Shown: positions 8,734 to 55,290 of the stretch, one piece after another
Numbering within the stretch: the stretch's first letter is position 1
How the letters are laid out: every line of letters begins with the position of its first letter
Assembly (NCBI GenBank): GCA_000004985.1
Contig: GG738920.1
Direction: 5' to 3' (one strand)
DNA: 64,000 bases
Origin: Naegleria gruberi
Lineage: Eukaryota
Program-made: the position numbers and the translations under genes
Notes under the pieces: generated by a model
Told to the model about the DNA's origin: nothing
The model's input: the letters and a program-made list of their open reading frames with translations, nothing else
The model's database searches: none

Positions 8734-11127
8734 ATGAATGAGACACTTGATAGTAGCAGCAACAATCTCCTCTTTAATCGTGAATATACTTCGAGGTCAA
8801 ATGTTGGGAGGCCAACATTTAGTTTAAGGGACTCTATGAATAGGGAATGTCTAGGATCATCCAATGTTGTGCCAACAACTCAAAAACAAACATCTTCTTC
8901 CGAGAGAGTTTATGGAGCAACATTTACTCCCTTCCCAACAAGAGAAAATATTCCTCCACGTTCCGATGATGCTGTCCTTAGAAAGAGTTATACATTTGAT
9001 GACAAGATGAGTGGCTTCCGAGAAAAAATCGACAATAGTCACTATAGCACATCTTTGGGGTGGAAGAGAAGAGCCGAGAAGGATGCAGAATGTTGCAAGA
9101 ACTGTCATTTATGTACTCAAACTCTTACAACAGATAAATGGGCCTTAACCAAACAAGAACGACAACTAAGGCCAGACTCATCAACAAGAGAACCAATGGA
9201 AGGTTATTATCCAAGTAATGATGGAAAGCAATATAGACCATATTCTCCAGACACAAAGTCAATGATGCAGAAATTAGTTGGCTACAAGGAGAATCCACAA
9301 GATCCTTCATTACCAATGTATAAATCAGCTCATTCACATCAAACTCCATCTGTGGATTATTATATGAATCAACCAAAGATTGAAACAAACTCTAGGCAAT
9401 CACAACCTAACACATACCCTAAGAATCCAAGTAAGATGCAGCCTTATAATACAAATACGATCTATCTAAGTAACAACCCCATCTCAGTCAAAAGTGTGAC
9501 ACTAAATACCAGATACGATCCAGCCTCAAGGTATAATCAAAATCCAGATGAGCCAAATAATTTCTTTCAAAGAGTTAGAATGGGTAGAATGTATTCTGAT
9601 TCTACTCCTTGGGAATACTATTTACATTATAATGAAGACGATGATGAAAAGAAGGACATGTATGATATGATTAGACAAAGATGTGCAGAATATGCCAAAA
9701 ATCAAACCAAAAAGGAAGATAGAAAAAGTAGAATATGTATGGAAACTTCAGAATTTAAAAATATTGTGGAAAAGCTCACAAGAAAGGAAACTAGCTCAGT
9801 GGAGACACAGACAGCAATCGATGAAAATAATAAGGAAAATGAAAACGATTATTCTAGAAATGCAATACAATCGAATAATACATCTGATTCTACAAGAACT
9901 AAAAAGTCAGACAAACAATCAGTCAATCAACAATCAAACAATCAATCAAATGGTAATGAAGAAGCAAATATTTATCTTCAAAATTCATCTGAGCAAAAGA
10001 AAACAAAATCTAAGCCAACTAAAAAGAAAGTATCCAATAATTCTACGACTCTCTCAACAACCTCAACAACTTCATCCAAATCCTCTAATAGTAGTGGCAG
10101 TTCAACATCCAATAGAGTACTCTCCATAACAAATGGTCCTCCTAGCACCAACAATAGAGTTATTGACGGTCTACCTGTTAACAGTCCTGCCAAAAAGCAA
10201 GATACACCAAAAGGTGTACCTGGTTTTACGCCACCTAAAAAGTCAGAAGTTTTTAATAAGATTGTCACAAATATGACCTCCAATAATAAGAAAAAGGTGA
10301 ACTCAAAGAAGAAAAAGAAGTCTCTAAATATTGAACCAAGGAAGAGTGTCTCTCAAAATACTACCTCAACTTCATCCTTCATAATATCAGACAAGACCAA
10401 ATCAACAACAACCTCTCCCTCCATAATCAACAAACCTGACAAGAAATTTAAAAAGACAATGAAAAGAATGGAAGATACAAAGAAAAAGGCAGAGTGGCTG
10501 GATAAGTACATTGCCCTGCTTTCTAGTCCAGAAAAATCAAGTGTTAAGAAGCGATTGGAAAGCTCCAGCAGACACACCTCTCCAAAGAAATCTGAAAGCT
10601 CACAAATCACCTTGCAAACCTCTTCTGATTGTGAAGATAATTCTACTCCATACTCCATTGACTTTGATGATGTTTACACTGGGTTGCCATCAACAGTGTC
10701 AACAGCGATAGCAACCTCAAAGTCTGTGCAAAAATGCTTTGATTCTGTTCTGAATTACTTTGAAAAGTCTAAATACAAATCAGACTCGTCCACGGAAGAG
10801 GACAATTTGGATGAAGAATTGGATGATAATGTAAGCCTTTCATCAATGACATCTGAATTGGAAATATCTGTAAAATATAACATTGGCAGCTACTCGAGTG
10901 ATGAAGAGGATGAAGAACAACTTTCAAGTGACGATGAGGAATGTAGTTTATTGAATGAGTTTACTCCAAATACTTCTTACCTTGTTGATAATATGAACGA
11001 AACTTCAGCAAGCATTTCAATGGATACCTCGCTGAACACTGTTTCGATCGGTTCAGAACAAGAGTTTGAGTGTAGCTCTTTGGATGATATTTCACGAGAT
11101 TTTAACATTTCAAATATGTCAATATAA
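8734..11127 (+). CDS. Ser/Thr/Asn/Lys-rich low-complexity protein (797 aa), hypothetical.
   Basis: A long ORF starting at a true ATG at 8734. It has S/T-rich tracts (TTSSKSSNSSGSSTSN), K-rich tracts and an acidic C-terminus. Confidence 0.45.
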   Translation: MNETLDSSSNNLLFNREYTSRSNVGRPTFSLRDSMNRECLGSSNVVPTTQKQTSSSERVYGATFTPFPTRENIPPRSDDAVLRKSYTFDDKMSGFREKIDNSHYSTSLGWKRRAEKDAECCKNCHLCTQTLTTDKWALTKQERQLRPDSSTREPMEGYYPSNDGKQYRPYSPDTKSMMQKLVGYKENPQDPSLPMYKSAHSHQTPSVDYYMNQPKIETNSRQSQPNTYPKNPSKMQPYNTNTIYLSNNPISVKSVTLNTRYDPASRYNQNPDEPNNFFQRVRMGRMYSDSTPWEYYLHYNEDDDEKKDMYDMIRQRCAEYAKNQTKKEDRKSRICMETSEFKNIVEKLTRKETSSVETQTAIDENNKENENDYSRNAIQSNNTSDSTRTKKSDKQSVNQQSNNQSNGNEEANIYLQNSSEQKKTKSKPTKKKVSNNSTTLSTTSTTSSKSSNSSGSSTSNRVLSITNGPPSTNNRVIDGLPVNSPAKKQDTPKGVPGFTPPKKSEVFNKIVTNMTSNNKKKVNSKKKKKSLNIEPRKSVSQNTTSTSSFIISDKTKSTTTSPSIINKPDKKFKKTMKRMEDTKKKAEWLDKYIALLSSPEKSSVKKRLESSSRHTSPKKSESSQITLQTSSDCEDNSTPYSIDFDDVYTGLPSTVSTAIATSKSVQKCFDSVLNYFEKSKYKSDSSTEEDNLDEELDDNVSLSSMTSELEISVKYNIGSYSSDEEDEEQLSSDDEECSLLNEFTPNTSYLVDNMNETSASISMDTSLNTVSIGSEQEFECSSLDDISRDFNISNMSI

Positions 11128-14155: not shown

Positions 14156-17028
14156 TTAAAGCTCATTGTTTTCCTGTGGGTTGACTTCGTAAACTTCAGA
14201 TTGATTGGATATATTATTTGGTTGGGAAATAATGGGATATTGTACTGGGTTGTCATTATTTGTTACAGTTGAGGAGAGGGGAGGAAATGATGATTCACTC
14301 TCTGTCATTTCAACTGAAGGAGTAATTGGATCTTGCATATTTGTTGATGAATTATCAGTTCGAGTATTCAAGTAATAGCTTGGTATGGAAAAGTAGTCCT
14401 TTGGACAACGTTGGTTGAATTCTTCCTCAGCAACAATCTTTCTCACATTTTCCTTCAAATCGAATACATCAATCACACCATTCAATTGTTCACAAACTAC
14501 AATTGCTTCCAATCCCCATTTAAGGTATTGTCTAATTCTGTGGATGGTATGGTTTGGAACTTCTGAAAGTCCTAGAACAGATAAATCATCTACAGAAGAA
14601 CCAAATAAAGATTCTTGAGAGCCATACAATCCAAAAACTCCAGTCATTAGGGCAGTTGATTGTAAAGTTTCCAATTCTTCGAGCTGAATTTCTACAGCTT
14701 TAACAATGCACGGAAGGACCACTGGACCACTGAAATAGAAAGCATCATTTCTTGTTGCTTCAATGACAGAATAAGATGCTAATATTGAGGTTGGTGTGTT
14801 AATGTTTGGAAGTGTAGAATAATTTTCACTCGTTTTTGAGGAACACATATCATCTCCAACAATGGATAACTTTGATACAATAATACTGATAGTGTCAGCA
14901 ATCATCTGGGAGGTCAAGAGAGAAATATTAGCAGAGAGTGGAGGGATAAAATTTTTGAGTACTTGATTTCCATAATTGAGGAACTCTTTGGAAAGTTTCA
15001 TTCTTTCTAAACATTCATCGAAGGAGATTCCTTTCTGAGTGTTAGAGCAAGATATACTTGCACTTGGATGGGCACGAACCGATTTGCAAGGTATGGTCAG
15101 GTAGTTCTCAACCCAGAATGAAGTTTCATTTTCAATTTCTCTTATTCTTTGTTCATCTTCTTCATGAATGTGAAGGTAAGAGTATTCATAAAGAAGCTCA
15201 TCTGCTTGTGGGGATGGAGGTAATAATCTCTCGTTATTCTTCTTTTGTTTCAAAGTTTTGATTAAAAATTCGGTAGTTGTTGCCGATTCTTTTAAATTTT
15301 GAAGTTTTGAGAGAGTATTAAATTGAGAAACTATTGTAGATGAGTGTAATTCATTCAAGCAGACGAGAAATTCTTGAACTTGGGATGATGTTAACTTGTT
15401 CTTAATCTTTTTCGAGAAGAGTATAACTTGAACATGAGAGAGTAATAGATGAAGTAAATGATCTTCAATATCCAAGTCTTTGATAGTATTCCTATATTCT
15501 TTCCATCCATGTTGTGAGTGAATACTACTAGTGGTTGTATCATGTTTGGCTACTCTTGATTCCAAATACGATGATACCTTAGTTATGTACTTGGATGCTT
15601 CCTCTGGATGTCTATTAGCAACTAGAAGTGAAATGTAGGAAAAACATATTAATACTCGTATTAACGTTTCGTGATCGTGGGATTTAACATGCTTTTTAGC
15701 TTTTAAATGTAAATAGAAAGGTTCCAGATATGACTTTGCCTTATTGAGGAGAAATTCCGAGACTTGAGGGAGGCCTACTCTATCAAATGCTAAAGACTGG
15801 ATACATAGAAAGAGTGAATAGTCAACATGATCGATATCTGAGAGTTTTTGCTCTTTGGATCTTATGGCAATGTGATGAAAATTTGAAGAGTCGTGTCCTA
15901 TAAGATGAGCAAGTTCTGGGGTTGGAGTTGATAAAGAAAGAGGTGTCAAATCTATAGAGAAATCAAGGGATGATGGCAAATTTGTTGAAATGTGAAGAGA
16001 GCTAGGTTTTTTGTGATGATAGTAATGTTGATCGTGATGATTTTTGTGCTGTTCAGTAATATTATTATGATTAGGTTCATGAGTTTCCTCACAAAGACGG
16101 TACAGAATGGAGATGATGTATGTTTTCAAAATATTTTCACTTGTTGGTTCGTCATCCACTGTTCCTAATTCGTTTGTCATAAAGTGGAAAGATACTAATG
16201 AATCATACAAGCATAAATCTCTAACGAGCTCCAATTTCCGTTTTGCAATTGATGAAGGTTGAATTTGTGGTAGAACTTGCTCCACAAACATACTCAAAAT
16301 ATTCTCATAGGTTTCATATTTTGGATCATCAAATGGTGACTTGTCTATTTGTTGTAATAATTCAATCCTTTTGTGTGCAGGTTGATGTTCATCCCGATGT
16401 GGATGTAAAGTTGGAACACCAGAAACAATCACTGGCTCAGCTCCATCTTCCTCCTCACTTTTAGATATTTCCTCATCATGTACATGTTTTACACCATGTT
16501 TTTCCTTCTTGTTCTCCTTTTTGTGACTTTTTTCAGTTTTTTCCACAATGCTATCTCCTTCGTTTGTTGCAGTTGAAGGAGCGTTAGAGAGTGGCACCAA
16601 AGTCTTGGTTGGTGATTTTGCTTTTCTATTACGTTTAGCCTGTGGATAAACACAAACTTTGTCTTTCCTACGACAATTAGAACAAATTGGCAATGCTTTA
16701 TCACACTAGTAGCAGATGTGGTAAATAAAGAAATTAATCCATCCAATAATTAATTTTACAAAGATGATCAAAAAAACAATGATAAAAAGCATAGTAAACA
16801 AACCTTTCTATGTCCCTTTCTACATTCTCTACAGGCAATTGGAGAATAGGTTTGAAGTACTTCCACAAGAGGTTGATCGGAGGAGGTTGAATTTTGAAGA
16901 TCAACATTGTCTGTTGTTGCCCCATGATCAAATAATTCTTCTTCATCACTTTCATCTTCTAAATCTTCATCACTATTCACAATGACTTTGTTTTTCGTCG
17001 ATGATGATGTATTTCCTGTTGCAAACAT
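14156..17028 (-). CDS. Zn(II)2Cys6 binuclear-cluster transcription factor. Two exons: 17028..16804 and 16705..14156, with a 98-nt GTTTGT...TAG intron.
   Basis: Splicing exon 1 (...SPIACRECRKGHRK) to exon 2 (CDKALPICSNCRRKDKVCVYP...) gives a perfect CxxCx6Cx6CxxCx6C spacing. Both junctions are in phase 0. The long C-terminal region is typical of this family. Confidence 0.6.
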
Positions 17029-23994: not shown

Positions 23995-25721
23995 TTATTG
24001 GAAGAGAGAAGAGTGGATCTTTTCATTATTGAGATACCAAACTTGATCTGGAATGTTGGAAGCCATTTCTGCCTTCTTGAGTTCCATATATTTTCTTCCT
24101 TGTTCGGTAGATAATAATTCAATCATGCCCTTCATGTATGATAATTCAATTTGAGCATCTGTTGATTTGATATAATTTTGAACTTCAATGTTAGCTTTGG
24201 TTGTTTCATAAGTGACTTGAGAATCAATCTTGGCTTCTTCAACCTTTTCAACTTGCAAGTTTTCATTTTCAATACCGATGAGTTCTTCACGTAATTTTTG
24301 AATTTCAGCTTCTGCCTTAAGTTGTTCCTTTTGAGCTTCTCTGGAGGCTTCAGTTTCCATCTTGTTACAGACAATTCGCATATTAGATTTGATAGATTGG
24401 TTCAAGAGATCATTGATTTGGTTATTAACAGGTGAGATTGATTTAACGTCGATTTCAGAGACTAATAATTTGATTTCATCAAAATAAATACCAAGAACGG
24501 ACTTTTCTTCGTTTCCAACATTGACTTTGGATTCATTGAAAAGGTGCTTTCGAATTAATGATACAGTTCCGCTGTGGAATTCTTCGAATGTGAAAAGAGC
24601 AGCAAGTTCTCTAACTCTTGACATGAGGGTAGCACAAATATATCCAATAAAGTCAAGCATTCTGAACATGACATGTGAATCTGATTCATCAACCAAAAAT
24701 TCCCACTTGTAAGTTAACAAAATGCTGAGTTCAGCATTGTCCTTTGTACTGACACGGAAAGAATCAGAAACGAAATCTGGACCTCTCATAATTTTGGCGG
24801 CCTTAATTTGTTTGATTTGTTTTGGCTTACCAGCAGACAACCAGAGACACTTAACGTGTTCCTCAGGTGAGAGAATGTATGAGGTTGGTCCATTGATAAT
24901 TCTTTCATTTCTTTCAGCATCCAAAACACAAACTACTTGTTTCTTTTCAAGACGAATAACAGTAGCCATATAATCCGAGCTAGTAGGTAATCCAAGAGCA
25001 GTCTTTTCCATATCAGTGTATTGCTTATAGTACAATTCTTCAGTTGCTTTCAAAATATAACATGCAGGTCCCTTAACTAACTTCTTTTCGGAAGTTTCAG
25101 TATCTTGAACATAAATACCTTCATTTTCATTGATCATGATGGCATTAACAGTTTTCATAACTTCAGTATCCTTATCTGGAATAAATCTGGCTGGTCCTTT
25201 AATTTGATAAACATCACCGGCCTAATTTAACAATAAAATAAATTGCTCAAATGATTACTAAGAATACAAACCTTCAAATCAACTTCCTTTCCATCAATTT
25301 CTATCTTCTTATCAACCAAACATCTCAATCTCAAAGCTTGGTTTGGTTTCAAAATATGAACATCAGTAATAGCTTCAATGACTTCATTTCTATGCAATGC
25401 CAAAGCCTTTGGTCCTTCAATAACACGACGTTCACCCATCAAGTTTCTTTCTTCCTCATAATCATATGGATTTTTAATAATAACATATTGTCCTTCCTAT
25501 TATCAGTGTAATTATTTAACAACAGCGATGATAATACAATGATGATGATCAACATGTTGTATTGTTGTGTGGTCACTTACCTTGATGATTGACAAATTTT
25601 GTGTATTAATGATGGCTTCATTGGCTCTCAAAGCAATACGTTTTGGACCAATTTCAATCTTGACAACACCCGAATCATTATCAAGAATGTGTACATAAGT
25701 ATTTGGATTTAGAACGTTCAT
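23995..25721 (-). CDS. MVP: Major vault protein homologue, unusually short at about 530 aa. Three exons: 25721..25581, 25496..25272 and 25221..23995.
   Basis: Exon 1 (MNVLNPNTYVHILDNDSGVVKIEIGPK) matches the MVP N-terminus (YIHVLDQNSNVSRVEVGPK). Exon 2 carries NQALRLR and exon 3 carries ENEGIYVQD. The shoulder motif LSAGKPKQ...RGPDFVSD...LTYKWEF corresponds to LSAGRPKR...GPDFFTD...LAYNWHF. The introns are GTAAGT (84 nt) and GTTTGT (50 nt). All three junctions are in phase 0. Confidence 0.65.
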
Positions 25722-38787: not shown

Positions 38788-40293
38788 TTAGCACTTTGCT
38801 CCATGGAACATGTATTCCATTCTTGCTTCATATAGGTCGTTTCTATATGTACATGTGTAGCCAGTTAGTTGAGCAACTTTTTTCGCAAATTCCTTATTAT
38901 CCATTTCTGCATTCCTAAGATCTAGCACATTATTGCTACTTATCCTGATTGCTTCCAATACAAAATCTTGAGAAAATCTCAATTCGTTTGTAATATATTT
39001 CAAAATTGGTTCAGTGGTTTCATTGATAATCTCAAACATGAATGGTGCACAACTTTTTAATTCATCAGGAACTCTAGTCAATTGTAATGCTGATTTTTTC
39101 ACAGCCTCTTTTACAACTTGTCTGTTCATCTCATGCTCAACAGGAATCCAATTCCCTCCCCTTATACTAATCAAAGCAAGTTCAACATCATTATTTCGTA
39201 AATCATCAGAAGCATACGAGTAAACAACGCTGTACTTCTCAATTGCTTTTTTCATAAAATCTCGATCACTTCTAATTCTCTCAGAAGCATAAGCAAGAGA
39301 GTGACAATGATTATTCAGTGCGCAAGTAACAATTTCGAAATCATCTCTGTATTCCTCATTGAGAAACTGAAGAGATAAACCATTCATCTTGACCATATGC
39401 ATAGCAATTTCTCTTTCGCTCATATGGTCCATCGAACTATCTTGTGCAATTTTACGAAACATTTTCATTATAAAAGAAGTATCATTCCTCAATCGTTCAG
39501 AAGCAAACATTAGAGCTGCCAAATCTGTTCGTGCAACAAGTTCAAATATATCCTCATCGTCCTGAAATGCATGTTCTAAATTTTCCAATATCCATGCATC
39601 ATTGCGTAATGCTGTGATTACTATCTCTCTATCATTCTGGAAATGATCAGGAGCTGCGAAAATGTCAACAGGACAAATCTCAACAGCTTTCAACACAAAA
39701 CTTCTGTCATTAATCAAAGATTTAGATAATCTACGCAATACTCCACCATCCTTTCCAATAAACTGCATATATTCAATTGCAAGATCCTCTCCAATATTTG
39801 CCAATCCTCCACAATCCTGAACTCTCTTTTTGATATCTTGATATTTTGAATTGGCGTAACTATTGATTGAATTAGTTTCTTTCTGGCAATTCTTAATATG
39901 ACATTGTAATTGTTCTCTAATGCCCAACCTAATCAGATCTGGATGAATTCGTGGTAATAGATATTCCAATGGGCTCACACCTCCAAATGAGCAAGTCGTT
40001 GTAATTAAATAACCATTGTTTACCAGTTTTGAAAACACTTTTTGAATAGTTTCTTCATCATTGGCATATTCAATAGGAAGATAGTACAAATCATGAACAA
40101 TAGTTTCCCTCCGAATCAGCCACTTTAACTTTCCCTCTTGTTGTGATGAGAATTTTTCTCTCAGCTTGTTCGATAGAAATAATAGTCGTACTAATGTTGT
40201 TGTTGTTGTTTTTGTTGTAGTAGATGAATGTTCATCATCATTATCATGAAAAGTAAAATGAACGAGAGATTTATCTGTAATGGTAATCATCAT
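38788..40293 (-). CDS. DUF4116-repeat protein (501 aa).
   Basis: There are five or more tandem DUF4116-like units (DREIVITALRNDAWILENLEHAFQDDEDIFELV, ...ASERLRNDTSFIMKMF..., ...YASERIRSDRDFMKKAIE..., ...YASDDLRNNDVELALISI...). ATG at 40293..40291. Confidence 0.5.
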   Translation of the reverse strand: MMITITDKSLVHFTFHDNDDEHSSTTTKTTTTTLVRLLFLSNKLREKFSSQQEGKLKWLIRRETIVHDLYYLPIEYANDEETIQKVFSKLVNNGYLITTTCSFGGVSPLEYLLPRIHPDLIRLGIREQLQCHIKNCQKETNSINSYANSKYQDIKKRVQDCGGLANIGEDLAIEYMQFIGKDGGVLRRLSKSLINDRSFVLKAVEICPVDIFAAPDHFQNDREIVITALRNDAWILENLEHAFQDDEDIFELVARTDLAALMFASERLRNDTSFIMKMFRKIAQDSSMDHMSEREIAMHMVKMNGLSLQFLNEEYRDDFEIVTCALNNHCHSLAYASERIRSDRDFMKKAIEKYSVVYSYASDDLRNNDVELALISIRGGNWIPVEHEMNRQVVKEAVKKSALQLTRVPDELKSCAPFMFEIINETTEPILKYITNELRFSQDFVLEAIRISSNNVLDLRNAEMDNKEFAKKVAQLTGYTCTYRNDLYEARMEYMFHGAKC

Positions 40294-46361: not shown

Positions 46362-49300
46362 TTATTGAGATTGTGGATTTTTTTGATCTGATCTTTGATA
46401 AACAACAACAATATCTTCAGAGTTTTCGTATGGATTGTAAACTGATGATGTTGGATTCACATGATAATTTCTTGTGTCAGACGAATTATCATAAATCAAA
46501 ATATTACTATGATTTTCCTCATTCGATACTGGAGGTGCGCTTGGTTGTTGATTATTATTGGTTGCTGATGTTGTTGAGTTATTACTGAATTCTGTCATTT
46601 CGACATGAGTAGCTTGATTTGGTTTTGGTGGTGGAAGTTTCACATCTGGTGGAATGTTAATAGTGCTACTGCTGGTGATTGGAGGAACAGGAGGAATTGT
46701 TGAGGATGTGTTGGTTGCGAATAATTGATTTCTGGCCTCTCGTTCTCTTCTTAAGCGTTCCTCTCTGTCTATTCTTTCCATTGCTTCTCTTTCTCTTCTG
46801 AGGTTCTCTTCTTGCATTCTTGAAACAGAATTATCAACTTGAATGGTGTGGTTTCGTCTATTTTCTTCACTATCTGTATCTGAATGAGGTGCAGTAGATG
46901 CGTTGGAATGAGTTGTTATATTATGGTGCTGTCTTGCTGATTTGGTAGCGAAAATGGATTTGAAAATCCACTGATCATTCACTGATTTCTTAATTAAATA
47001 GTCAGCAAGTGCAGTTCCAAGGAAAAGAACTGTCAGGAATAGGAAAATAGTTCCAAGAACTAATCCTGAAATACCCAATGCTTGAATCTGATCAAAGCTG
47101 GTATTCAAGAAGATTATTTCAGAATTTGGGCATCTTAACTTGGCTGTTGCAATGGATCCCATTGTAAAATTGTTCTTTGTGATACTTGGTTGATATAACA
47201 CACCATTAATTGTCATATTAGATGGATAAGTCGAACTGGAAGAGTACTTAATGCATGAAAGGGTTCTATCTTGTGTATCCATTATAGTGGCATAGGTAGT
47301 TATGGAACTAGGTGCTCTATATTTACAGCAGGTATAATAAGTAGCATTTCCCAATTGAGCGCCATTTGGAATAATGTCACTTTCGGTATTTGATAGTGTT
47401 GCTATTCCCACTCCCATAGAAATGAGCAATCCAACATAGAATGCAACACTACAGAATAAACAAACAAATCCAAGAATTAGGTTGGACACTATCGTATGGA
47501 CTTTCTTTTTGGTTAACTTTTCCAATATACTGGAAAGTGCTGGACCAAGCAATAATACTAAATCATAAAATACTGTCATTCCTGATCCTTTCTTGAATGC
47601 ATTCAACGAGGCATCATAATTGGCACTGATAGATGGATCTTTAAGTGCTCCATTATAGATCAAGAATAAACAAAGTACTAAATAAAGAACTGATACAATG
47701 AATAAACCTCCCATTACACCCAAGGTAATCAGAATTGGAAGAGTTTCAGGTTGCACTTGAGCATCCTCTTCCACAAAAACGTAGGCATAATTAGAGGTGT
47801 ATTTAGAATTGGTGGTTGATGGGAAAATCATACTAAAGAATAGGAAAGTCTTACTGTCGACCATCTCTTGTGTAATTTTCATTCTAGCATTCAACTTGGT
47901 GAAGGATTGTTGATACTTGTAATTGTAATAGGTTACATCGTAATAATTGAAGAGGGTCTTGTTCATTGGAATTAGTTCACTAGTAGTCCAATCGACCAAG
48001 AAGACGTTTTCGTCATTTGGGATTGCGTAACTAGTTGTGAATTCTACATTAATATACTTATCAATAGTGGATTGTGAAATGTTCAAACTACTTGCATTCA
48101 GATAGAGATTAGGATATTTCAAGTCAATAGCTGACTCTGAATTATATCTAACAGTGGGAGTATAGCTGTGTTCGAAATAGATGTTTGAACTTAAATAGCA
48201 AGAATATGCATTCGTAACAATAGAGCCAGGAATTTCTCTAAAGAAGAGATAGATTTGCTGTCCTATCATGTCCAATTTCGAAGGTGAAATTAGACGAAAG
48301 TTGGATTCTTGCAATGAAAATGTTCCTGTGTTTGAAAAAGAATACCTCAAAGAATAGACTTTCGAAGAATTTTTAAAGGATAGGTCAGATATTTTCATAT
48401 CATAATCTGTTGTGGTTGGTTTTTGGCCAATTTTAGCATAAACCTCATATGATCTATCAAATATTCCCAACCTACTATCCAAATTAATAGTTAAATCGCT
48501 AGAGATAAGGTAGGTTCTATCAACATTGAGGGTATAATAGAAATCACCAGACAATGTTGATAAGTAATTTTTAGCATTAGTTCCAAATACATTATTGGTA
48601 TAGTTTGCAGCATAATAATAAAATGTAATTTGAGAATATTGGAGAGATGGATCAATAAACAATCCAAATTTCCAAATGTTTCCCTTGATTCCTGTTGTTG
48701 GGGTGAGAAGTGAAATCTGTGCCTCGTACGGAGAAGCAATGTTTGAAGAGTTACAGTTCAAAGTTTGATTGTAAAGTTCGTTAGATTGAATTGTTCTGGT
48801 TGCTCCATTAGAATTCAATGAATTATCAATAAAATCCTGAGTACCAATAAGAGATAGTTTTGAAGGTTGATTATATCTTGGTAAACCTTTAACAGTTGCC
48901 CTAACAAATAACCTTACAGTGTCAGAAGTTACCTTACTAGTGTCAAGGAATAACCAGTGGACTCCATTAGATACAGATGCTTTTGCTTGATTTTGAGACC
49001 CTGCTACTTTTAAAGAAATAGTGGATGGATTTGAAAATAAAGTAGGATAAGAAAGAGTCAAATTAACAGTGCACAATTGACATCTTGTCTCAAAAAAATA
49101 AAGAAAATTCTTGGAAGAAAGTTGAGCATTCGGAAATTGATTCTTTGGGACAGAAGATCCCTTCATTTGACTCATTAACTCAATGCTTGGTGATTTTAAA
49201 GTGTTAAACGCAATAAATTTGTCTGTACTTGAATCATCATTGACAAAGGTCAAATTTGTCAACAATGGAATGGATTCCAATTTGTTAATTGTTGAAATGG

Positions 49301-50786
49301 TCAGTCCAAATGCTTCACCTATTTCATTCTTTTCTGTAAAAATTGAATTGATTGTCAAGCTGTCATCACTCAATGTTGAATAAAACTTTCGTGACAAGTA
49401 CAATCTGAATGTGGCAGAGGTTGCTTCAACTCTCAAATAAATGGCTGTGTTACTCGATCCTGTGCAGTCTAATTGCTCTGATGGAACAACCAAGAATAAT
49501 CGAGACCCAATAAAATCTTTGTCAATGAACGAAATCTTTTTTTGTTCCATTGTCTTGTTGGAGAGAATGAATAAACTTCCAGAAAATGCACTAGATGCAA
49601 TCAAGTTCACTTGAAGCCAACAATTGTTTGAATTGAATGGGCTTTGTGCTTCATGAATGAAATACGACAAATCTGAAACTTGACTCTTCACAACCATGGA
49701 TGGATTTGAGCTTATTTCTGAATTGGTTGAAACTTGCTTGGTTTGGAAAATTGAATATGAAAACGATTTTGAATTATCTGATGAATTCATTTCCTCAACA
49801 AAATCATTCGATGAATCAACTGATATGTCAATGGAAGAGGAAACAGATGTCTCACTTTTCGATCCATTCAATTTGAAATTTACATCAAATGTCAATGTTT
49901 CCAAATATGATAAATTGACATTATAAAGTGTGAATGTCATCTTTGAGGATGATACTGTGCTATTCTCAATTTCAGGATAAATGTCCACTATGTTGGAAGA
50001 AGAAATCTTTCTTATACTCTGCAATGAAACTAGTGATATTGATAATATTGAAGAACTTATGGTAATAGTGATATTGACAGCTGGATCAATGGCCTTATTA
50101 TTGACTACAATTGGAATATTGGCAGAATCTGTCATATTATTTACAAAAAGTCCATTGAATGGTTCAGATTTGACTTGATTATATGAAGAAGGAGTAAGAA
50201 AATTAATTGAACTGCTATTTGATGCTAACACCAAATCAACAATTGTTGTGTCATTTGTAACATAGCAAAAACCCAACTTGACTTGAGTCATAAAGAGTGA
50301 AACTGTTGGATTTGCATTTCGTGTTGTAATTTTGAAAGTATTGATATCACTTAAATTCAAATAAGATGTAATTGCTTGACTATTCAAATCTAAACTAAAG
50401 GTTGATCCGTTACAAAAGGAATAGGTTGGTAATGGAAGATTCATTATGAAAATATCATTGATTAAAACAGATGTTGTGTGTTGATATTGACTATTTGATG
50501 TTGGGGAGAAGACGTACTTGGCTGTTACTGTCAAACCACTTCCAAGAATGATCTTTCCTTTGGTTGTGTATGGAAATGTTGCAACAAGATCCAGTGTATT
50601 TAATACCTTATATGCAGAGGTTGAACATGTAAGATCAGAGGCCATATTTTTGCTATCAAAATACGAATCCATCACTATTGAATCGGTACACATCTTTTTT
50701 GCCATTATAACCGACTGTTGGCAACACAAACAGGTCAACAACAGTAGCGTAAACAGTTGGACGAAACTTGCTGAGTTTCCTTTCAT
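46362..50786 (-). CDS. Large Ser/Thr/Asn-rich secreted or membrane glycoprotein (1474 aa). It has a signal peptide, a long ectodomain, four predicted TM helices and an Arg/Glu- and Pro-rich cytoplasmic tail.
   Basis: The N-terminus is MKGNSASFVQLFTLLLLTCLCCQQSVIMA. It has many N-x-S/T sites. TM helices occur near residues 1010-1200. The tail contains RREREAMERIDREERLRREREARNQ and then PPVPPITSS...PPPKP. Confidence 0.5.
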   Translation of the reverse strand: MKGNSASFVQLFTLLLLTCLCCQQSVIMAKKMCTDSIVMDSYFDSKNMASDLTCSTSAYKVLNTLDLVATFPYTTKGKIILGSGLTVTAKYVFSPTSNSQYQHTTSVLINDIFIMNLPLPTYSFCNGSTFSLDLNSQAITSYLNLSDINTFKITTRNANPTVSLFMTQVKLGFCYVTNDTTIVDLVLASNSSSINFLTPSSYNQVKSEPFNGLFVNNMTDSANIPIVVNNKAIDPAVNITITISSSILSISLVSLQSIRKISSSNIVDIYPEIENSTVSSSKMTFTLYNVNLSYLETLTFDVNFKLNGSKSETSVSSSIDISVDSSNDFVEEMNSSDNSKSFSYSIFQTKQVSTNSEISSNPSMVVKSQVSDLSYFIHEAQSPFNSNNCWLQVNLIASSAFSGSLFILSNKTMEQKKISFIDKDFIGSRLFLVVPSEQLDCTGSSNTAIYLRVEATSATFRLYLSRKFYSTLSDDSLTINSIFTEKNEIGEAFGLTISTINKLESIPLLTNLTFVNDDSSTDKFIAFNTLKSPSIELMSQMKGSSVPKNQFPNAQLSSKNFLYFFETRCQLCTVNLTLSYPTLFSNPSTISLKVAGSQNQAKASVSNGVHWLFLDTSKVTSDTVRLFVRATVKGLPRYNQPSKLSLIGTQDFIDNSLNSNGATRTIQSNELYNQTLNCNSSNIASPYEAQISLLTPTTGIKGNIWKFGLFIDPSLQYSQITFYYYAANYTNNVFGTNAKNYLSTLSGDFYYTLNVDRTYLISSDLTINLDSRLGIFDRSYEVYAKIGQKPTTTDYDMKISDLSFKNSSKVYSLRYSFSNTGTFSLQESNFRLISPSKLDMIGQQIYLFFREIPGSIVTNAYSCYLSSNIYFEHSYTPTVRYNSESAIDLKYPNLYLNASSLNISQSTIDKYINVEFTTSYAIPNDENVFLVDWTTSELIPMNKTLFNYYDVTYYNYKYQQSFTKLNARMKITQEMVDSKTFLFFSMIFPSTTNSKYTSNYAYVFVEEDAQVQPETLPILITLGVMGGLFIVSVLYLVLCLFLIYNGALKDPSISANYDASLNAFKKGSGMTVFYDLVLLLGPALSSILEKLTKKKVHTIVSNLILGFVCLFCSVAFYVGLLISMGVGIATLSNTESDIIPNGAQLGNATYYTCCKYRAPSSITTYATIMDTQDRTLSCIKYSSSSTYPSNMTINGVLYQPSITKNNFTMGSIATAKLRCPNSEIIFLNTSFDQIQALGISGLVLGTIFLFLTVLFLGTALADYLIKKSVNDQWIFKSIFATKSARQHHNITTHSNASTAPHSDTDSEENRRNHTIQVDNSVSRMQEENLRREREAMERIDREERLRREREARNQLFATNTSSTIPPVPPITSSSTINIPPDVKLPPPKPNQATHVEMTEFSNNSTTSATNNNQQPSAPPVSNEENHSNILIYDNSSDTRNYHVNPTSSVYNPYENSEDIVVVYQRSDQKNPQSQ

Positions 50787-52113: not shown

Positions 52114-53703
52114 CTACTTTTTCTTTTTGTTAGGATAGGAGGAAGAAAAACTTCCTGATCTCTTTGGTTGGTGTGTAATTAGAGAAGATGAAGCTTGTGT
52201 TGGTTGCTGTTGAATGATGGGAGTGTTTGATAGTAAATTCTCCAAATAATTCAGGGCATCCTTAGTTTTGCTGCACTGTTCGTAAATGTTTAAACGAGGA
52301 TTAGAGATCTTTTGAATAATTACACTTGCAGTCCTCTGGTTCGTCTCGAAAGTAATATAAGAGAACAATCCAGTTACTGAATGTAGATTTGTTTCAATGT
52401 GAGATCGTAATAGTGGCATAGTTCTGTGTAGTTCATATTTCTTTGATGCTGGATTGCTGTTCTGGAGGAAATTATTAATATCTCTGCAATTTGAACAATT
52501 AGTTTCACATACAAAGGTTGGAAGTGACCAGTCCCTTACGTCAGCTTTTTCTTGAATATTGAGAATTGATTTAATAAGCTCAATACTACAGGTGACAAGT
52601 TGAGCAAATGCTTTAACATCAATGAATGCACTCTTACCATACGTAATCTCAATATATTTGATGAGAGGAATAAGTATTTTGGCAACTCCAACAAAATCTT
52701 TAATTTTTGAAGTGATTGCTGACGTAACTTCTGATAATTCATTTGGAAAATTGCAATAGCAGATAGCTGAAATAATGGCCTTGCAATTTTCCACACTAAT
52801 ATCATCCGTTATGAACTGATTAATTATCCTTTCTCTAAGTTTCAATAGCATGACATTGGCAACTTCATGATCACCAAGTCCATTCAAGTGAATGACAAAT
52901 TTAAGGGAAGTATTCAAATCCATTTCTGTTATAATACCTTCCAAAAAGTTTTTAACTTCCTCACAAAAGAAATATTTTAGATAGTAAATAATAACAGTAT
53001 AGTACCTTAAAAATTTTTCCTTATTTCCCAATAATAGATTCAATGCTGAAACCATATATGAATGATAATTCTCCAAGTATTTCAATATTAATGATAGTTC
53101 AGTTTGATCTACGACCATACAACGCTTAATCATATAGACAGAAGTACTCTCCATTAGAGGGACAGCACATAATTGCATGCAATTCAATATTCTTTCTACA
53201 GCATAGGGCGAAAGATATCCTGTGGTTGATAAATATTCAAATACATAGTCACACAGGTCTGATGTAAGAGTTGAGTTTTCCTGTAGTAAAATAGTCTCAA
53301 AAGCAAAATCAAATATCATTTTGCTACTGAGATTAGATGTTATAAATTTGAAGAATGGTTGTTTGAAACTATTCATAAATCCAAAGGTGCTTATTAGGTC
53401 TTGCCATGATTTTAAGCATAAATGTTTGTTTGAAAATTCAGTAGCTATTTCATCATTCTTCAATTTAAGTACAGCATTTAGAAGGGCACTTTCTTGCAAC
53501 CAATTAGTCTTCATCATTTCCAATATTTTATCTACATTCGCCTTGTTTGGATTTTCAAGTTGATCATCTACCAACATGTCAAAATATTTATGCTTGCAAT
53601 TACTGTCCAAAAAACGCAAAGCATTAACATAATTCTTCTTTGGAATAATTGCTAAGCAAGAACGAGAATGATATCTTGAAAGTTTGTTAGAAATTTCAAT
53701 CAT
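52114..53703 (-). CDS. Helical hypothetical protein (529 aa). It is probably the 3' part of the same gene as 53704..55290.
   Basis: The ORF starts at the ATG immediately after the TAG of the upstream ORF, in the same frame. It has a C-terminal KKKK. Confidence 0.4.
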   Translation of the reverse strand: MIEISNKLSRYHSRSCLAIIPKKNYVNALRFLDSNCKHKYFDMLVDDQLENPNKANVDKILEMMKTNWLQESALLNAVLKLKNDEIATEFSNKHLCLKSWQDLISTFGFMNSFKQPFFKFITSNLSSKMIFDFAFETILLQENSTLTSDLCDYVFEYLSTTGYLSPYAVERILNCMQLCAVPLMESTSVYMIKRCMVVDQTELSLILKYLENYHSYMVSALNLLLGNKEKFLRYYTVIIYYLKYFFCEEVKNFLEGIITEMDLNTSLKFVIHLNGLGDHEVANVMLLKLRERIINQFITDDISVENCKAIISAICYCNFPNELSEVTSAITSKIKDFVGVAKILIPLIKYIEITYGKSAFIDVKAFAQLVTCSIELIKSILNIQEKADVRDWSLPTFVCETNCSNCRDINNFLQNSNPASKKYELHRTMPLLRSHIETNLHSVTGLFSYITFETNQRTASVIIQKISNPRLNIYEQCSKTKDALNYLENLLSNTPIIQQQPTQASSSLITHQPKRSGSFSSSYPNKKKK

Positions 53704-55290
53704 CTACACATACCTAAAATTAGCTTTAACCAGGAACCTATCATCATGATAAACATGAAAACCATCATTCTCAAAATCGTTAATACGATCAAACGGAATT
53801 ATTATTGAAATATCTGAAACTTTGATCTCCTTAGAAAATATTTCATTTCCATTCTTCAAATATTCAATGGTATAAGTAGAATACGAGTTTTCCAAATCCT
53901 CACTGTCAACATCGTCGAGATCACTATTTTCATAATTTCTTCCTCCTTCATTTTGAAGACGTTTATGACGTTTCCACTCCTGCACACTCATACTTGTAAC
54001 ATCACCTGATTTAGATTTGTGCATATTACCCAAGCATAGGTAGAAATTATTATGTATAGAGTTGTAATTACGTAACCAGTCATAGATAACAGCATCGTTT
54101 TCTTTCAAATTACTACCATCACTCAATTCATGTCTCGAATATTGTTCATTCAAAATATAAATAATGTAGGGAGTTTCTGATTCCCACTCATTAAGTGTTT
54201 TGCTCAGGTAGTTCAGTGTCATTTCTGCAGCATTGGCAGCTGGCATTAGATAATATGGCCCATTGAAAATAACATTATACACCAAAGCCAATCTTAATCC
54301 ACTTGTCAAAACATTTACCTTAAAATCACTCTCATGATAGAAAGCAACGTAGGATGTGGAATAGTGAGATTTTGATGAGTTTGGATAGAAATTTTCATTT
54401 GATTTGTATTTCACACTCATCTCTCCACCTGTATAGACAGAAGGAAGATAGACAACTAGAGTGGCAAACATCTTGTCCTCCTTTTTGTGATCTGAATGAA
54501 AATCGTATTGTCTTTCTCCTTCGAATAACAATAATTTGCTGAGCTTGACTATTACTTCCTTACCTGCTCCAACTCCTAATCCTTGTTTGATTTCCTTTTG
54601 TAATAAATTATTAATCATATCATTCCAATTAGGATTGGTAATTTCAAATTGATTTAATTCCAATTGCCATGGTTTAGTTTCTTCATTCATTGTGGTGAGT
54701 TGAATAATGTCATTGGCTTGTTCCTTCGAAGCAAATGGAAGTGAAATATTCCTTCTCTCCACCACAACATTCGTGTCATTTGACACTAGTAATTGCAAAC
54801 CAATAGCTGGATAGATGTCAAACTCTCCTCCCACAGAAAAGTTTCCCTCTAAAACATCAGGTACCAGTTCTGACAATATCTTGTCCATTCGTTTTGTGGT
54901 TTTTGATGGATGATAGTCCTCTTCTTCATCAGAGGTGAGGAAATAAATTTCATCATCGGAATCGTCTTCACTATCAGCTTTATCATTGTGCATGATCTCC
55001 TCATCTTCATCCGATGAATTAATTTCCATCACATTTTCAAGATTAGTTACTTCTTGATCATTCTGTGAATCATCATCTTCGGTAATATCGATTACTTCAT
55101 GTCCTTTGATACTCTCTATTACTGATGAGGCAGCAGCTCCAGTAGCAGCATTACTCGAAACCTCTTTTAATTGAATTGTGTTGATGATCATGTCCTCTTG
55201 TTGATCAAAGCAAAAACTTTCAACATCTGAATTTCCTGATGATAAATCTTCATCTAATAGAGGAGAATTTGGTGTGGTTGCTACCAACAT
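53704..55290 (-). CDS. 2OG-Fe(II)-oxygenase-like protein (the N-terminal 528-aa ORF). It is probably the 5' part of a longer gene that continues into 52114..53703.
   Basis: The N-terminus is acidic and Ser-rich. The core is DFHSDHKKEDKMFATLVVYLPSVYTGGEMSV, which is HxD ... GG(E), followed by YHESD and GLRLAL, a P4H-type double-stranded beta-helix pattern. It terminates at a TAG directly abutting the next ATG, in the same frame. Confidence 0.4.
   Translation of the reverse strand: MLVATTPNSPLLDEDLSSGNSDVESFCFDQQEDMIINTIQLKEVSSNAATGAAASSVIESIKGHEVIDITEDDDSQNDQEVTNLENVMEINSSDEDEEIMHNDKADSEDDSDDEIYFLTSDEEEDYHPSKTTKRMDKILSELVPDVLEGNFSVGGEFDIYPAIGLQLLVSNDTNVVVERRNISLPFASKEQANDIIQLTTMNEETKPWQLELNQFEITNPNWNDMINNLLQKEIKQGLGVGAGKEVIVKLSKLLLFEGERQYDFHSDHKKEDKMFATLVVYLPSVYTGGEMSVKYKSNENFYPNSSKSHYSTSYVAFYHESDFKVNVLTSGLRLALVYNVIFNGPYYLMPAANAAEMTLNYLSKTLNEWESETPYIIYILNEQYSRHELSDGSNLKENDAVIYDWLRNYNSIHNNFYLCLGNMHKSKSGDVTSMSVQEWKRHKRLQNEGGRNYENSDLDDVDSEDLENSYSTYTIEYLKNGNEIFSKEIKVSDISIIIPFDRINDFENDGFHVYHDDRFLVKANFRYV

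What the first reader, a model, noticed from the sequence alone, without database searches (positions are those of the whole stretch)
23995..25721. Major vault protein homologue only about 530 aa long, with about four MVP repeat domains instead of nine.
The three-exon minus-strand gene matches MVP at the N-terminus (R1/R2), at NQALRLR, at ENEGIYVQD and through the shoulder domain (LSAGKPKQ...GPDFVSD...LTYKWEF) into a coiled-coil cap helix. There is no room in the contiguous sequence for the missing roughly 300 residues. A natural 'short-barrel' MVP would predict a much squatter vault particle, or a paralogue with a different assembly role. MVP presence is also phylogenetically informative, because it is absent from most fungi and plants.
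Basis: partly seen in the sequence, partly recalled or inferred. Interest (0 to 1): 0.6.

Follow-up and report, generated by a model that had tools for sequence, protein, structure and literature searches.

The report
Naegleria short five-repeat major vault protein
This is a real, complete gene for an unusually short (530 aa) major vault protein in the amoeba Naegleria gruberi, with five barrel repeats instead of nine; the protein was already described in 2013, so the finding is correct but not new.

Summary
A three-exon minus-strand gene (25721..23995, GT-AG introns of 84 and 50 nt) encodes a 530-aa protein. It is identical to Naegleria gruberi XP_002670013.1 / UniProt D2W0Z9 (NAEGRDRAFT_81983). 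It is a true MVP: Pfam MVP_shoulder E 5e-35, human/rat MVP E about 1e-67, and solved vault structures are the top Foldseek hits (E 5e-38). It has five beta repeats, not four. They correspond to R1, R6, R7/R3, R8 and R9, followed by the shoulder, a 104-residue cap helix (155 in rat) and a short tail. Missing are R2-R5, which include the PARP4 docking site, and about a third of the cap helix. The short form is not an assembly artefact. Full-length orthologues of 506-552 aa occur in N. lovaniensis, Acrasis, Pharyngomonas, Stygiella and Andalucia, some taken from transcriptomes. This exact protein was described as a short MVP with fewer repeats by Daly et al. 2013. A 2025 JBC paper states that Heterolobosea and Jakobida encode only short MVPs and lack TEP1. 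One point appears under-described. The Naegleria protein is collinear with five-repeat MVPs of Asgard and DPANN archaea and has the same cap-helix length (104 vs 105 residues). Whether it forms a small vault is untested.

The parts
23995..25721 (-). Whole gene NAEGRDRAFT_81983 (N. gruberi short MVP, D2W0Z9), from start codon to stop codon
   Evidence: Splicing and translation; exact identity to XP_002670013.1
25581..25721 (-). Exon 1 (aa 1-47)
   Evidence: ATG at 25721 and GTAAGT donor at 25580; the N-terminus matches the N. lovaniensis orthologue
25497..25580 (-). Intron 1, 84 nt, GT...AG
25272..25496 (-). Exon 2 (aa 48-122)
25222..25271 (-). Intron 2, 50 nt, GT...AG
23995..25221 (-). Exon 3 (aa 123-530 plus TAA stop at 23995-23997)
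25590..25721 (-). Repeat 1 (aa 1-44), equivalent to MVP R1, the waist-forming repeat
   Evidence: AF2 strands 2-42; R1 HMM 37 bits; hhalign S1-R1 score 72, probability 99%
25359..25589 (-). Repeat 2 (aa 45-93, spans intron 1), equivalent to R6 (R2 is its paralogue in long MVPs)
   Evidence: AF2 strands 44-92; best match is R6 in 19 of 20 short MVPs; hhalign R6 70 vs R2 35
25144..25358 (-). Repeat 3 (aa 94-148, spans intron 2), the R3/R4/R5/R7 repeat type; contains NQALRLR
   Evidence: Pfam Vault PF01505 at aa 94-138, 39 bits; hhalign R7 77, R3 73
24940..25143 (-). Repeat 4 (aa 149-216, with inserted helix 192-198), equivalent to R8; contains ENEGIYVQD
   Evidence: AF2; best match is R8 in 20 of 20 short MVPs; hhalign 108
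24784..24939 (-). Repeat 5 (aa 217-268), equivalent to R9; ends in the basic loop G253-K-P-K256
   Evidence: Pfam Vault_3 57 bits; best match is R9 in 20 of 20 short MVPs. The loop aligns with the human R504-H509 keyhole loop
24424..24783 (-). Shoulder (SPFH-like) domain, aa 269-388
   Evidence: PF11978 E 4.6e-35, full-length match 1-118/118; Foldseek also hits the SPFH cages HflK/C, prohibitin and flotillin
24112..24423 (-). Cap helix, aa 389-492, a single 104-residue helix
   Evidence: AF2 helix H389-492; aligns to the human cap helix; the Asgard P0162 model has helix H384-488
23998..24111 (-). C-terminal tail, aa 493-530: helix 495-510, then a low-confidence tail with the clade-conserved WY..(D/N)......L motif (possible reduced cap ring)
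   Evidence: pLDDT below 50 for 517-530; conservation in alignment A1

Best explanation
The locus is the complete, intact N. gruberi gene NAEGRDRAFT_81983 (D2W0Z9). It belongs to a conserved lineage of short major vault proteins found in Heterolobosea and Jakobida.

Shown here: the protein has exactly one copy of each of the five MVP repeat types (R1-like, R6-like, R7-like, R8-like, R9-like). These are followed by a full shoulder (SPFH-like) domain, a 104-residue cap helix and a short tail. Compared with the rat or human protein it lacks R2-R5, about 50 residues of cap helix and part of the cap ring.

Inferred: like other MVPs and SPFH-family cage proteins, it probably self-assembles. Side-by-side packing of the repeat and shoulder domains, together with bundling of the cap helices, would form a cup. 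The cup would have a wall about four repeats shorter per half than the mammalian one. Because the cap helix is a third shorter, the cup is probably also narrower, with fewer than 39 subunits. Whether two cups join through R1 into a closed particle is open.

The protein cannot dock a PARP4-type partner the mammalian way, because the R3-R4 docking surface is absent. By published accounts Naegleria lacks vPARP and TEP1. The basic G-K-P-K loop, which forms part of the adenine-nucleotide pocket in human MVP, is conserved, so phosphate or nucleotide binding at the shoulder may be retained.
For: Gene model and identity.

MVP membership.

Five repeats and their equivalences: the AF2 model (pLDDT 84), per-repeat HMMs and profile-profile scores.

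Conservation of the short form: 506-552 aa orthologues at 36-80% identity and 96-100% coverage in N. lovaniensis, Acrasis kona, Pharyngomonas kirbyi, Stygiella incarcerata and Andalucia godoyi. The sequence after the shoulder has a median length of 142 aa in the Discoba clade and 219 aa in long MVPs.

No further MVP-like sequence in the window.

Literature: the same protein was modelled as a short MVP (PMC3595041). Only short forms, and no TEP1, are reported in Heterolobosea and Jakobida (PMC12547018). The vPARP clade is limited to animals and Amoebozoa (PMC2964712). The PARP4 MINT domain binds MVP R3-R4, and the NAD+ pocket uses R504/K506/R507/P508/H509 (PMC12280208). These residues align with Ng K254/K256/Q257/I258/K259. 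G253, K254, P255 and K256 are invariant or nearly so across the short clade.
Against: No vault-like particle has been reported from Naegleria, and nothing here tests assembly.

Several human waist-contact residues are not conserved (R9 -> V3, D39 -> A33, R42 -> A36; the N-terminal hydrophobic residues are absent). Half-to-half joining therefore cannot be assumed.

Pocket residues K573 and P565 are replaced (A319, L311), so nucleotide binding is uncertain.

The particle-size and subunit-number estimates are geometric inference only.

Expression of this gene in N. gruberi itself was not checked with transcript data. Only orthologues come from transcriptomes.
Confidence: 0.85

Rival explanations
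1. Artefact: a mis-assembled or mis-spliced nine-repeat MVP gene whose missing exons lie elsewhere.
For: None found. The only basis is that canonical MVPs are about 850-900 aa long.
Against: The spliced product equals the RefSeq protein. The N. lovaniensis orthologue is also 530 aa at 80% identity and 100% coverage, from an independent genome. Transcriptome-derived complete ORFs of 527-529 aa exist in Pharyngomonas and Stygiella. No other MVP-like DNA occurs in the 64-kb window. The AF2 model is a continuous, confident chain of domains.
Confidence: 0.02
2. Secondary reduction: the Discoba short MVP descends from a nine-repeat eukaryotic MVP. It lost R2-R5 in one step, for example by unequal recombination between the paralogous repeats R2 and R6, and later trimmed the cap helix. 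Its likeness to prokaryotic five-repeat MVPs would then be convergent.
For: R2 and R6 are paralogous (hhalign probability 98%), so an R2/R6 recombination would leave exactly R1-R6-R7-R8-R9. Euglenozoa, the sister group of Heterolobosea, and nearly all other eukaryotes have long MVPs. The sequence margin favouring prokaryotic short forms is small: 34-37% vs 31.5-32.3% identity. The NJ tree is unrooted and the short forms sit on long branches.
Against: It needs two independent length changes (four repeats and about 50 residues of cap helix) that happen to reproduce the archaeal architecture: cap helix 104 vs 105 residues, collinear at 35% identity with 4% gaps. Jakobid and heterolobosean short forms group together. 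The short form therefore predates the Heterolobosea-Euglenozoa split, and long and short forms must have coexisted. All five Discoba repeats score at least as high against prokaryotic short-form repeats as against long-form repeats: 74/103/94/127/88 vs 72/70/77/108/86.
Confidence: 0.3
3. Not a vault shell. The short protein would work as an SPFH-like membrane-associated cup or scaffold, or as a soluble oligomer, rather than as a closed two-half particle.
For: The shoulder plus cap helix resembles the SPFH cages that cap membranes (HflK/C, flotillin, prohibitin, erlin, stomatin; Foldseek probability 1.0). Waist-contact residues are poorly conserved. The published Asgard model is a single closed cup of ten subunits. 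A 2026 paper is titled 'The vault associates with membranes in situ'; only the title and the start of its abstract were seen.
Against: No transmembrane or membrane-anchor segment is evident at the N-terminus, which is an ordinary R1 repeat. R1 is retained across the whole short clade, which suggests it has a role at the rim. RosettaDock modelling in PMC3595041 found lateral docking along the whole monomer.
Confidence: 0.25

Closest known systems
Canonical eukaryotic major vault protein (rat/human MVP, 861/893 aa; PDB 4V60, 9BW5)
   Same: Same domain types in the same order: beta repeats, SPFH-like shoulder, long cap helix, C-terminal tail. Hallmark motifs are shared (ENEGIYVQD, SAG[KR]PK, GPDF, Y[KN]W.F). 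Significance is strong (E about 1e-67 by sequence, 5e-38 by fold).
   Different: Five repeats instead of nine (R2-R5 absent). The cap helix is 104 rather than 155 residues. R8, R9 and the cap ring are shorter. Identity is only 27-30%. The PARP4 docking surface on R3-R4 is absent. TEP1 and vPARP are reported absent from the organism.
Short MVPs of Heterolobosea and Jakobida (D2W0Z9 and D2V5B9 in Daly et al. 2013; 'short MVP forms' in PMC12547018)
   Same: This protein is D2W0Z9 itself. The orthologue set recovered here is the same group.
   Different: None in kind.
Five-repeat MVP homologues of Asgard archaea (PMC12962969), and the relatives found here that carry DPANN archaeon, CPR bacterium and Eremiobacterota source names
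   Same: Same five repeat types in the same order. Same cap-helix length (104 vs 105 residues). Similar tail length (142 vs 151 aa median). Collinear at 35% identity over 503 residues with 4% gaps, E 3e-89.
   Different: Eukaryotic gene with two spliceosomal introns. Many prokaryotic members have a 20-40 aa N-terminal extension and a longer R8-R9 linker. In the two DPANN-type contigs examined (L001, L005) the gene sits just upstream of a nucleosidase-like gene, overlapping it by 14 bases. No such linkage exists in Naegleria.
SPFH-family cages (HflK/C, prohibitin, flotillin, erlin, stomatin)
   Same: SPFH-like domain followed by a long helix that builds a domed oligomer (Foldseek E 1e-8 to 1e-4).
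   Different: Those proteins have no beta-repeat skirt and are membrane-anchored. Sequence identity is about 10%.

Membership tests
Major vault protein family | MVP shoulder domain (Pfam PF11978) | tested here: met
   120.6 bits against a cut-off of 25, E 4.6e-35, full-length match 1-118/118 at aa 269-388
Major vault protein family | Vault beta-repeat domains N-terminal to the shoulder | tested here: met
   PF01505 39.2 bits (cut-off 27) and PF17795 57.3 bits (cut-off 28.8); PF17796 18.8 bits, below its cut-off of 22.9. Five beta modules in the AF2 model.
Major vault protein family | Nine repeats (R1-R9), as in the solved rat and human vaults | tested here: not met
   Five repeats, equivalent to R1, R6, R7/R3, R8 and R9; R2-R5 are absent
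Major vault protein family | Long cap helix after the shoulder (155 residues in rat) | tested here: inconclusive
   A single uninterrupted helix is present but has 104 residues (aa 389-492; pLDDT 64-84 over aa 391-500). The 155-residue figure is from PMC7916137.
Major vault protein family | Cap-ring domain at the C-terminus | tested here: inconclusive
   Only about 38 residues follow the cap helix. There is a clade-conserved WY..(D/N)......L motif that resembles the long-form LITDG..PINLF by eye. The AF2 confidence there is below 50.
Major vault protein family | Self-assembly into a hollow two-half barrel (D39 in mammals) | not testable with these tools
   No multimer prediction or experiment was available. 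Only earlier RosettaDock modelling exists (PMC3595041).
Major vault protein family | Association with TEP1, vPARP and vault RNA | not tested
   The genome outside the window was not searchable here. The literature reports TEP1 absent from Heterolobosea and the vPARP clade limited to animals and Amoebozoa. No such genes lie among the window's large ORFs.
Five-repeat (short) MVP class (Discoba, Asgard, DPANN, CPR) | One copy each of repeat types R1, R6, R7, R8 and R9, in that order | tested here: met
   Per-repeat HMM architectures are identical for the Naegleria protein, P0162 (named Promethearchaeota), P0134 (named Woesearchaeota) and P0146 (named Eremiobacterota). Profile-profile scores are 74-127 between the Discoba and prokaryotic repeats at each position.
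Five-repeat (short) MVP class (Discoba, Asgard, DPANN, CPR) | Short cap helix (about 105 residues) and about 140-150 residues after the shoulder | tested here: met
   Ng helix H389-492 vs P0162 helix H384-488. Median length after the shoulder is 142 (Discoba), 151 (prokaryotic short) and 219 (long).
SPFH (Band 7) superfamily | SPFH fold followed by an oligomerising helix | tested here: met
   Foldseek hits to HflK/C, prohibitin, erlin, flotillin and stomatin with probability 1.0 and E 1e-8 to 1e-4

The most novel reading that the evidence does not exclude
The Naegleria short MVP is not a truncated nine-repeat MVP. It is a surviving eukaryotic member of the archaeal-type five-repeat MVP lineage: collinear with an Asgard protein, with the same five non-redundant repeat types and the same 104-105-residue cap helix. 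On this reading early eukaryotes, at least the Discoba ancestor, carried two MVP lineages. The nine-repeat form would have arisen from a five-repeat ancestor by internal duplications: R6-R7 pair -> R2-R3, then R3 -> R4, R5. The seven-repeat myxobacterial proteins would be an intermediate architecture. A Naegleria or jakobid particle would then be the closest living eukaryotic model of the proto-vault.
Probability: 0.35. Interest if true: 0.65.

Novelty: already known. Interest (0 to 1): 0.3.

Why it matters
Vault function is still unresolved, and its shell is used as an engineered nanocontainer. A natural MVP holding only one copy of each repeat type defines the minimal shell-forming unit. It also shows which parts (R2-R5, one third of the cap helix) are dispensable additions linked to PARP4 docking and particle size. 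If the short Discoba form is the archaeal-type ancestor rather than a reduction, it bears on whether the vault came from the Asgard host, and on how a large eukaryotic cage grew by internal repeat duplication. As a scan finding, however, the core claim has been in the literature since 2013.

Tried and rejected
1. I looked for hidden or displaced MVP exons. tblastn of five long or seven-repeat MVPs and two short ones against the whole window found MVP-like sequence only at 23995-25721.

2. I looked for vault partners nearby. Pfam scans of 19 large ORFs in the window gave TPR, ankyrin, P450, LRR, DUF4116, RSN1_7TM, F-box, BTB, kinase and RsmB-type methyltransferase domains. Nothing resembled TEP1 or vPARP.

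3. I tried to name the organism carrying the archaeal homologue P0029 and to map prokaryotic relatives with genome contigs. The archaeal nature of the contig was instead inferred from L13_A_E and uS9_arch matches.

4. I tried to polarise short versus long forms with an NJ tree with bootstraps. Only the monophyly of long plus seven-repeat forms is supported (100/100). That is uninformative about the root.

5. I tried to polarise by asking whether the second repeat is closer to R6 or to R2. Discoba and prokaryotic forms both prefer R6, so R2 is simply the faster-evolving copy and gives no polarity.

6. I checked whether the abutting 528-529 aa ORFs at 52114-55290 are tandem paralogues. They are not.

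7. I ran no further search on retrieving the second N. gruberi paralogue (D2V5B9, 559 aa). Its existence rests on PMC3595041 only.
Full report
**1. What is there**

On the minus strand, an ATG at 25721 opens a 141-nt exon that ends at a GTAAGT donor. An 84-nt intron ends in AG at 25497. A 225-nt exon follows, then a 50-nt GT...AG intron, then a 1227-nt exon that ends with TAA at 23997-23995. The 1593-nt CDS encodes 530 residues. An exact-sequence look-up shows the product is identical to Naegleria gruberi XP_002670013.1 / EFC37269.1 / UniProt D2W0Z9, locus NAEGRDRAFT_81983. The window (33.6% G+C, short introns) is therefore N. gruberi nuclear DNA. The neighbours are an ankyrin-repeat ORF that converges on the 3' end (ending at 23962) and a TPR ORF 435 bp upstream.

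**2. Is it an MVP?**

Yes.
- Pfam gives MVP_shoulder at aa 269-388 (120.6 bits, E 4.6e-35, full-length match), Vault_3 at 217-263 (57 bits) and Vault at 94-138 (39 bits). Vault_4 at 149-190 falls below its threshold.
- phmmer against PDB sequences gives human, rat and rabbit MVP at E about 2e-67.
- An AlphaFold2 model built on a 20-sequence alignment has mean pLDDT 84. Its best Foldseek matches in the PDB are vault structures (9r86, 9bw6, 4v60 and others; E 5e-38 to 1e-32). SPFH-family cages follow (HflK/C, prohibitin, erlin, flotillin, stomatin; E 1e-8 to 1e-4).

**3. Anatomy**

The model shows five consecutive beta modules:
- aa 1-44
- aa 45-93
- aa 94-148
- aa 149-216, with a short helix at 192-198
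- aa 217-268

Then come the alpha/beta shoulder (269-388), one uninterrupted helix (389-492, 104 residues), a short helix (495-510) and a low-confidence tail.

To find out which of the nine canonical repeats these are, I aligned 86 full-length MVPs and cut the alignment at the rat domain boundaries. Those boundaries are recalled from Tanaka et al. 2009. They agree with the PARP4-interaction (INT) domain binding site at residues 113-221 (about R3-R4) and with the 155-residue cap helix quoted in PMC7916137. I then built one HMM per domain. Results:
- In the Naegleria protein and 19 other short MVPs, module 1 best matches R1 (16/20), module 2 R6 (19/20), module 3 R3 or R7 (9/11), module 4 R8 (20/20) and module 5 R9 (20/20).
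- Profile-profile comparison agrees: R1 72, R6 70 (R2 35), R7 77 / R3 73, R8 108, R9 86.

So the count is five, not about four. The missing barrel segment corresponds to R2-R5, about 216 residues. The rest of the roughly 331-residue deficit comes from a cap helix about 50 residues shorter, a reduced cap ring, and somewhat shorter R8 and R9. The sequence after the shoulder has a median of 142 residues in this clade and 219 in long MVPs.

**4. Not an artefact**

- The closest relatives are all short and cover the whole protein: N. lovaniensis 530 aa (80% identity, 100% coverage), Acrasis kona 521 aa, Pharyngomonas kirbyi 529 aa, Stygiella incarcerata 527 aa (the last two from transcriptome assemblies flagged as complete ORFs) and Andalucia godoyi 552 aa. 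About 20 environmental sequences of 506-540 aa join them.
- Long MVPs (800-900 aa) are only 27-32% identical.
- tblastn of long MVPs against the whole 64-kb window finds nothing outside this gene.
- No vault-partner genes are among the window's large ORFs.

**5. Already known**

- Daly, Sutherland-Smith and Penny (Genome Biol Evol 2013; PMC3595041) named D2W0Z9 (530 residues) and a second N. gruberi protein, D2V5B9 (559 residues). [quoted passage not shown] They modelled them with I-TASSER and docked them with RosettaDock. They also raised both options, gain of repeats elsewhere or loss in Naegleria. Their follow-up paper repeats that the sequences 'do appear to be complete'.
[quoted passage not shown] It also states that TEP1 appears absent there.
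- The PARP family survey (PMC2964712) finds the vPARP clade only in animals and Amoebozoa.

**6. How it most likely works**

Shown: every domain type needed for an MVP shell is present once.

Inferred from the solved vaults and SPFH cages:
- Monomers would pack side by side through the repeats and shoulder, and their cap helices would bundle to close a dome.
- With four fewer repeats per chain, the wall of each half would be shorter by roughly 4 x 2-2.5 nm. This is my estimate from a barrel about 40 nm long built by 18 repeats.
- The cap helix spans the distance from shoulder to pole. A helix one third shorter therefore implies a smaller shoulder radius and probably fewer than 39 subunits. Both numbers are inference only.

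The PARP4 MINT domain docks on an acidic stretch of R3-R4 (Q164, R169, Q172, D214; PMC12280208). That surface does not exist here, which is consistent with the reported absence of vPARP.

The adenine-nucleotide pocket of human MVP uses the 'keyhole' loop R504-P505-K506-R507-P508-H509 plus P565 and K573.
- In Naegleria the loop reads K254-P255-K256-Q257-I258-K259.
- G253, K254, P255 and K256 are invariant or nearly invariant across the short clade.
- P565 and K573 are replaced by L311 and A319.
- Phosphate or nucleotide binding is therefore plausible but unproven.

Human waist-contact residues (R9, D39, R42, N-terminal hydrophobics) are mostly not conserved (V3, A33, A36). Whether two cups join is open.

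**7. Wider comparison and the residual novel angle**

One hit of similar rank to the long MVPs, P0029 (574 aa), lies on a gene-dense contig with archaeal-type L13 and S9 genes. A search with P0029 recovered about 50 proteins of 479-650 aa. Source names among them include Nanoarchaeota, Woesearchaeota, Candidatus Uhrbacteria, Eremiobacterota, Promethearchaeota (Asgard) and Odinarchaeota. It also recovered about 755-aa myxobacterial proteins.

Per-repeat HMMs give these architectures:
- Most prokaryotic short forms have the same R1-R6-R7-R8-R9 order as Naegleria.
- The protein named Odinarchaeota has four repeats (R1-R6-R8-R9).
- The myxobacterial forms have seven (R1-R2-R7-R6-R7-R8-R9).

Within nine-repeat MVPs, R2 is a paralogue of R6 (hhalign 98%). 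R3, R4, R5 and R7 are paralogues of each other (98-100%). R1, R8 and R9 are unique. The architectures therefore form a nested series:
- five repeats: A-B-C-D-E
- seven repeats: A-B-C-B-C-D-E
- nine repeats: A-B-C-C-C-B-C-D-E

An AF2 model of the Asgard protein P0162 (pLDDT 82) has the same order of elements as the Naegleria model and a cap helix of 105 residues against 104. BLASTP aligns the two proteins end to end: 35% identity over 503 residues, 4% gaps, E 3e-89.

[quoted passage not shown] Its main text does not mention Naegleria, Discoba or Heterolobosea. I did not see the link to the Discoba short forms stated explicitly in the papers read.

The link is suggestive, not proven:
- Over 299 shared columns, the Naegleria protein is 34-37% identical to prokaryotic short forms and 31.5-32.3% identical to long forms.
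- Discoba repeats score a little higher against prokaryotic short-form repeats than against long-form repeats.
- The NJ tree cannot be rooted.
- An R2/R6 unequal recombination could produce the same repeat set by deletion.
- Jakobid and heterolobosean short forms group together while Euglenozoa have long forms. Either both lineages coexisted in the Discoba ancestor, or transfer or repeated loss occurred.

**8. Verdict**

The gene is real, complete and correctly located. It is a true MVP homologue with five repeats and a shortened cap helix. It belongs to a conserved short-MVP lineage. It is not an artefact. The claim is already in the literature, so novelty is 'already known' and interest is modest. 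The most novel reading still allowed is that this is a eukaryotic survivor of the archaeal-type five-repeat MVP and that the nine-repeat vault shell is a later expansion. I give that about 0.35.

Noticed in passing
L001 10001-12404; L005 3811-6166; L006 149-817 and 5001-6665: In two DPANN-type archaeal contigs the five-repeat MVP gene overlaps by 14 bases a downstream PNP_UDP_1 gene. The L001 copy matches the MTA/SAH nucleosidase model NF004079 at E 4e-33, below that model's cut-off. A third contig (L006, organism not determined) has a PNP_UDP_1 gene 4 kb upstream of its MVP gene. This suggests an operon linking prokaryotic MVPs to nucleoside metabolism. It may be relevant to the NAD+/ADP-ribose pocket recently found in the human vault shoulder.
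   Followed up: partly
L003 7746-11650 (Logan SRR15116022, 58% G+C): Two short MVP paralogues lie head to head (36% and 31% identical to the Naegleria protein). One was called as two genes. A gene with a 13,701-residue product lies next to them. The organism is unknown.
   Followed up: partly
Proteins P0176-P0186 (Corallococcus, Vitiosangium; about 755 aa): Myxobacterial MVP homologues have seven repeats in the order R1-R2-R7-R6-R7-R8-R9 and a long-type C-terminus (221 aa after the shoulder). This architecture is intermediate between the five- and nine-repeat forms.
   Followed up: partly
Proteins P0170, P0172 (479 aa; P0170 named Odinarchaeota by its source): These are even shorter MVP homologues with four repeats (R1-R6-R8-R9). 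They lack the R7-type repeat.
   Followed up: no
Long MVP alignment (86 sequences): In nine-repeat MVPs R2 is a paralogue of R6, and R3, R4, R5 and R7 are mutual paralogues. R1, R8 and R9 are unique. The nine repeats therefore reduce to five types.
   Followed up: yes
window 52114-53703 and 53704-55290 (minus strand): Two ORFs of 529 and 528 aa abut without a gap. Neither has a Pfam match and they are not similar to each other (BLASTP E 8.3). They may be one gene interrupted by a stop codon or an unrecognised intron.
   Followed up: partly
window 8734-11127 (+), 14156-16693 (-), 46362-50786 (-): Three large ORFs (797, 845 and 1474 aa) have no Pfam family at E <= 0.001.
   Followed up: no
window 38788-40293 (-): A 501-aa ORF has five DUF4116 repeats (E 8e-52). 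It is flanked by LRR, AAA and RsmB-type methyltransferase ORFs.
   Followed up: no
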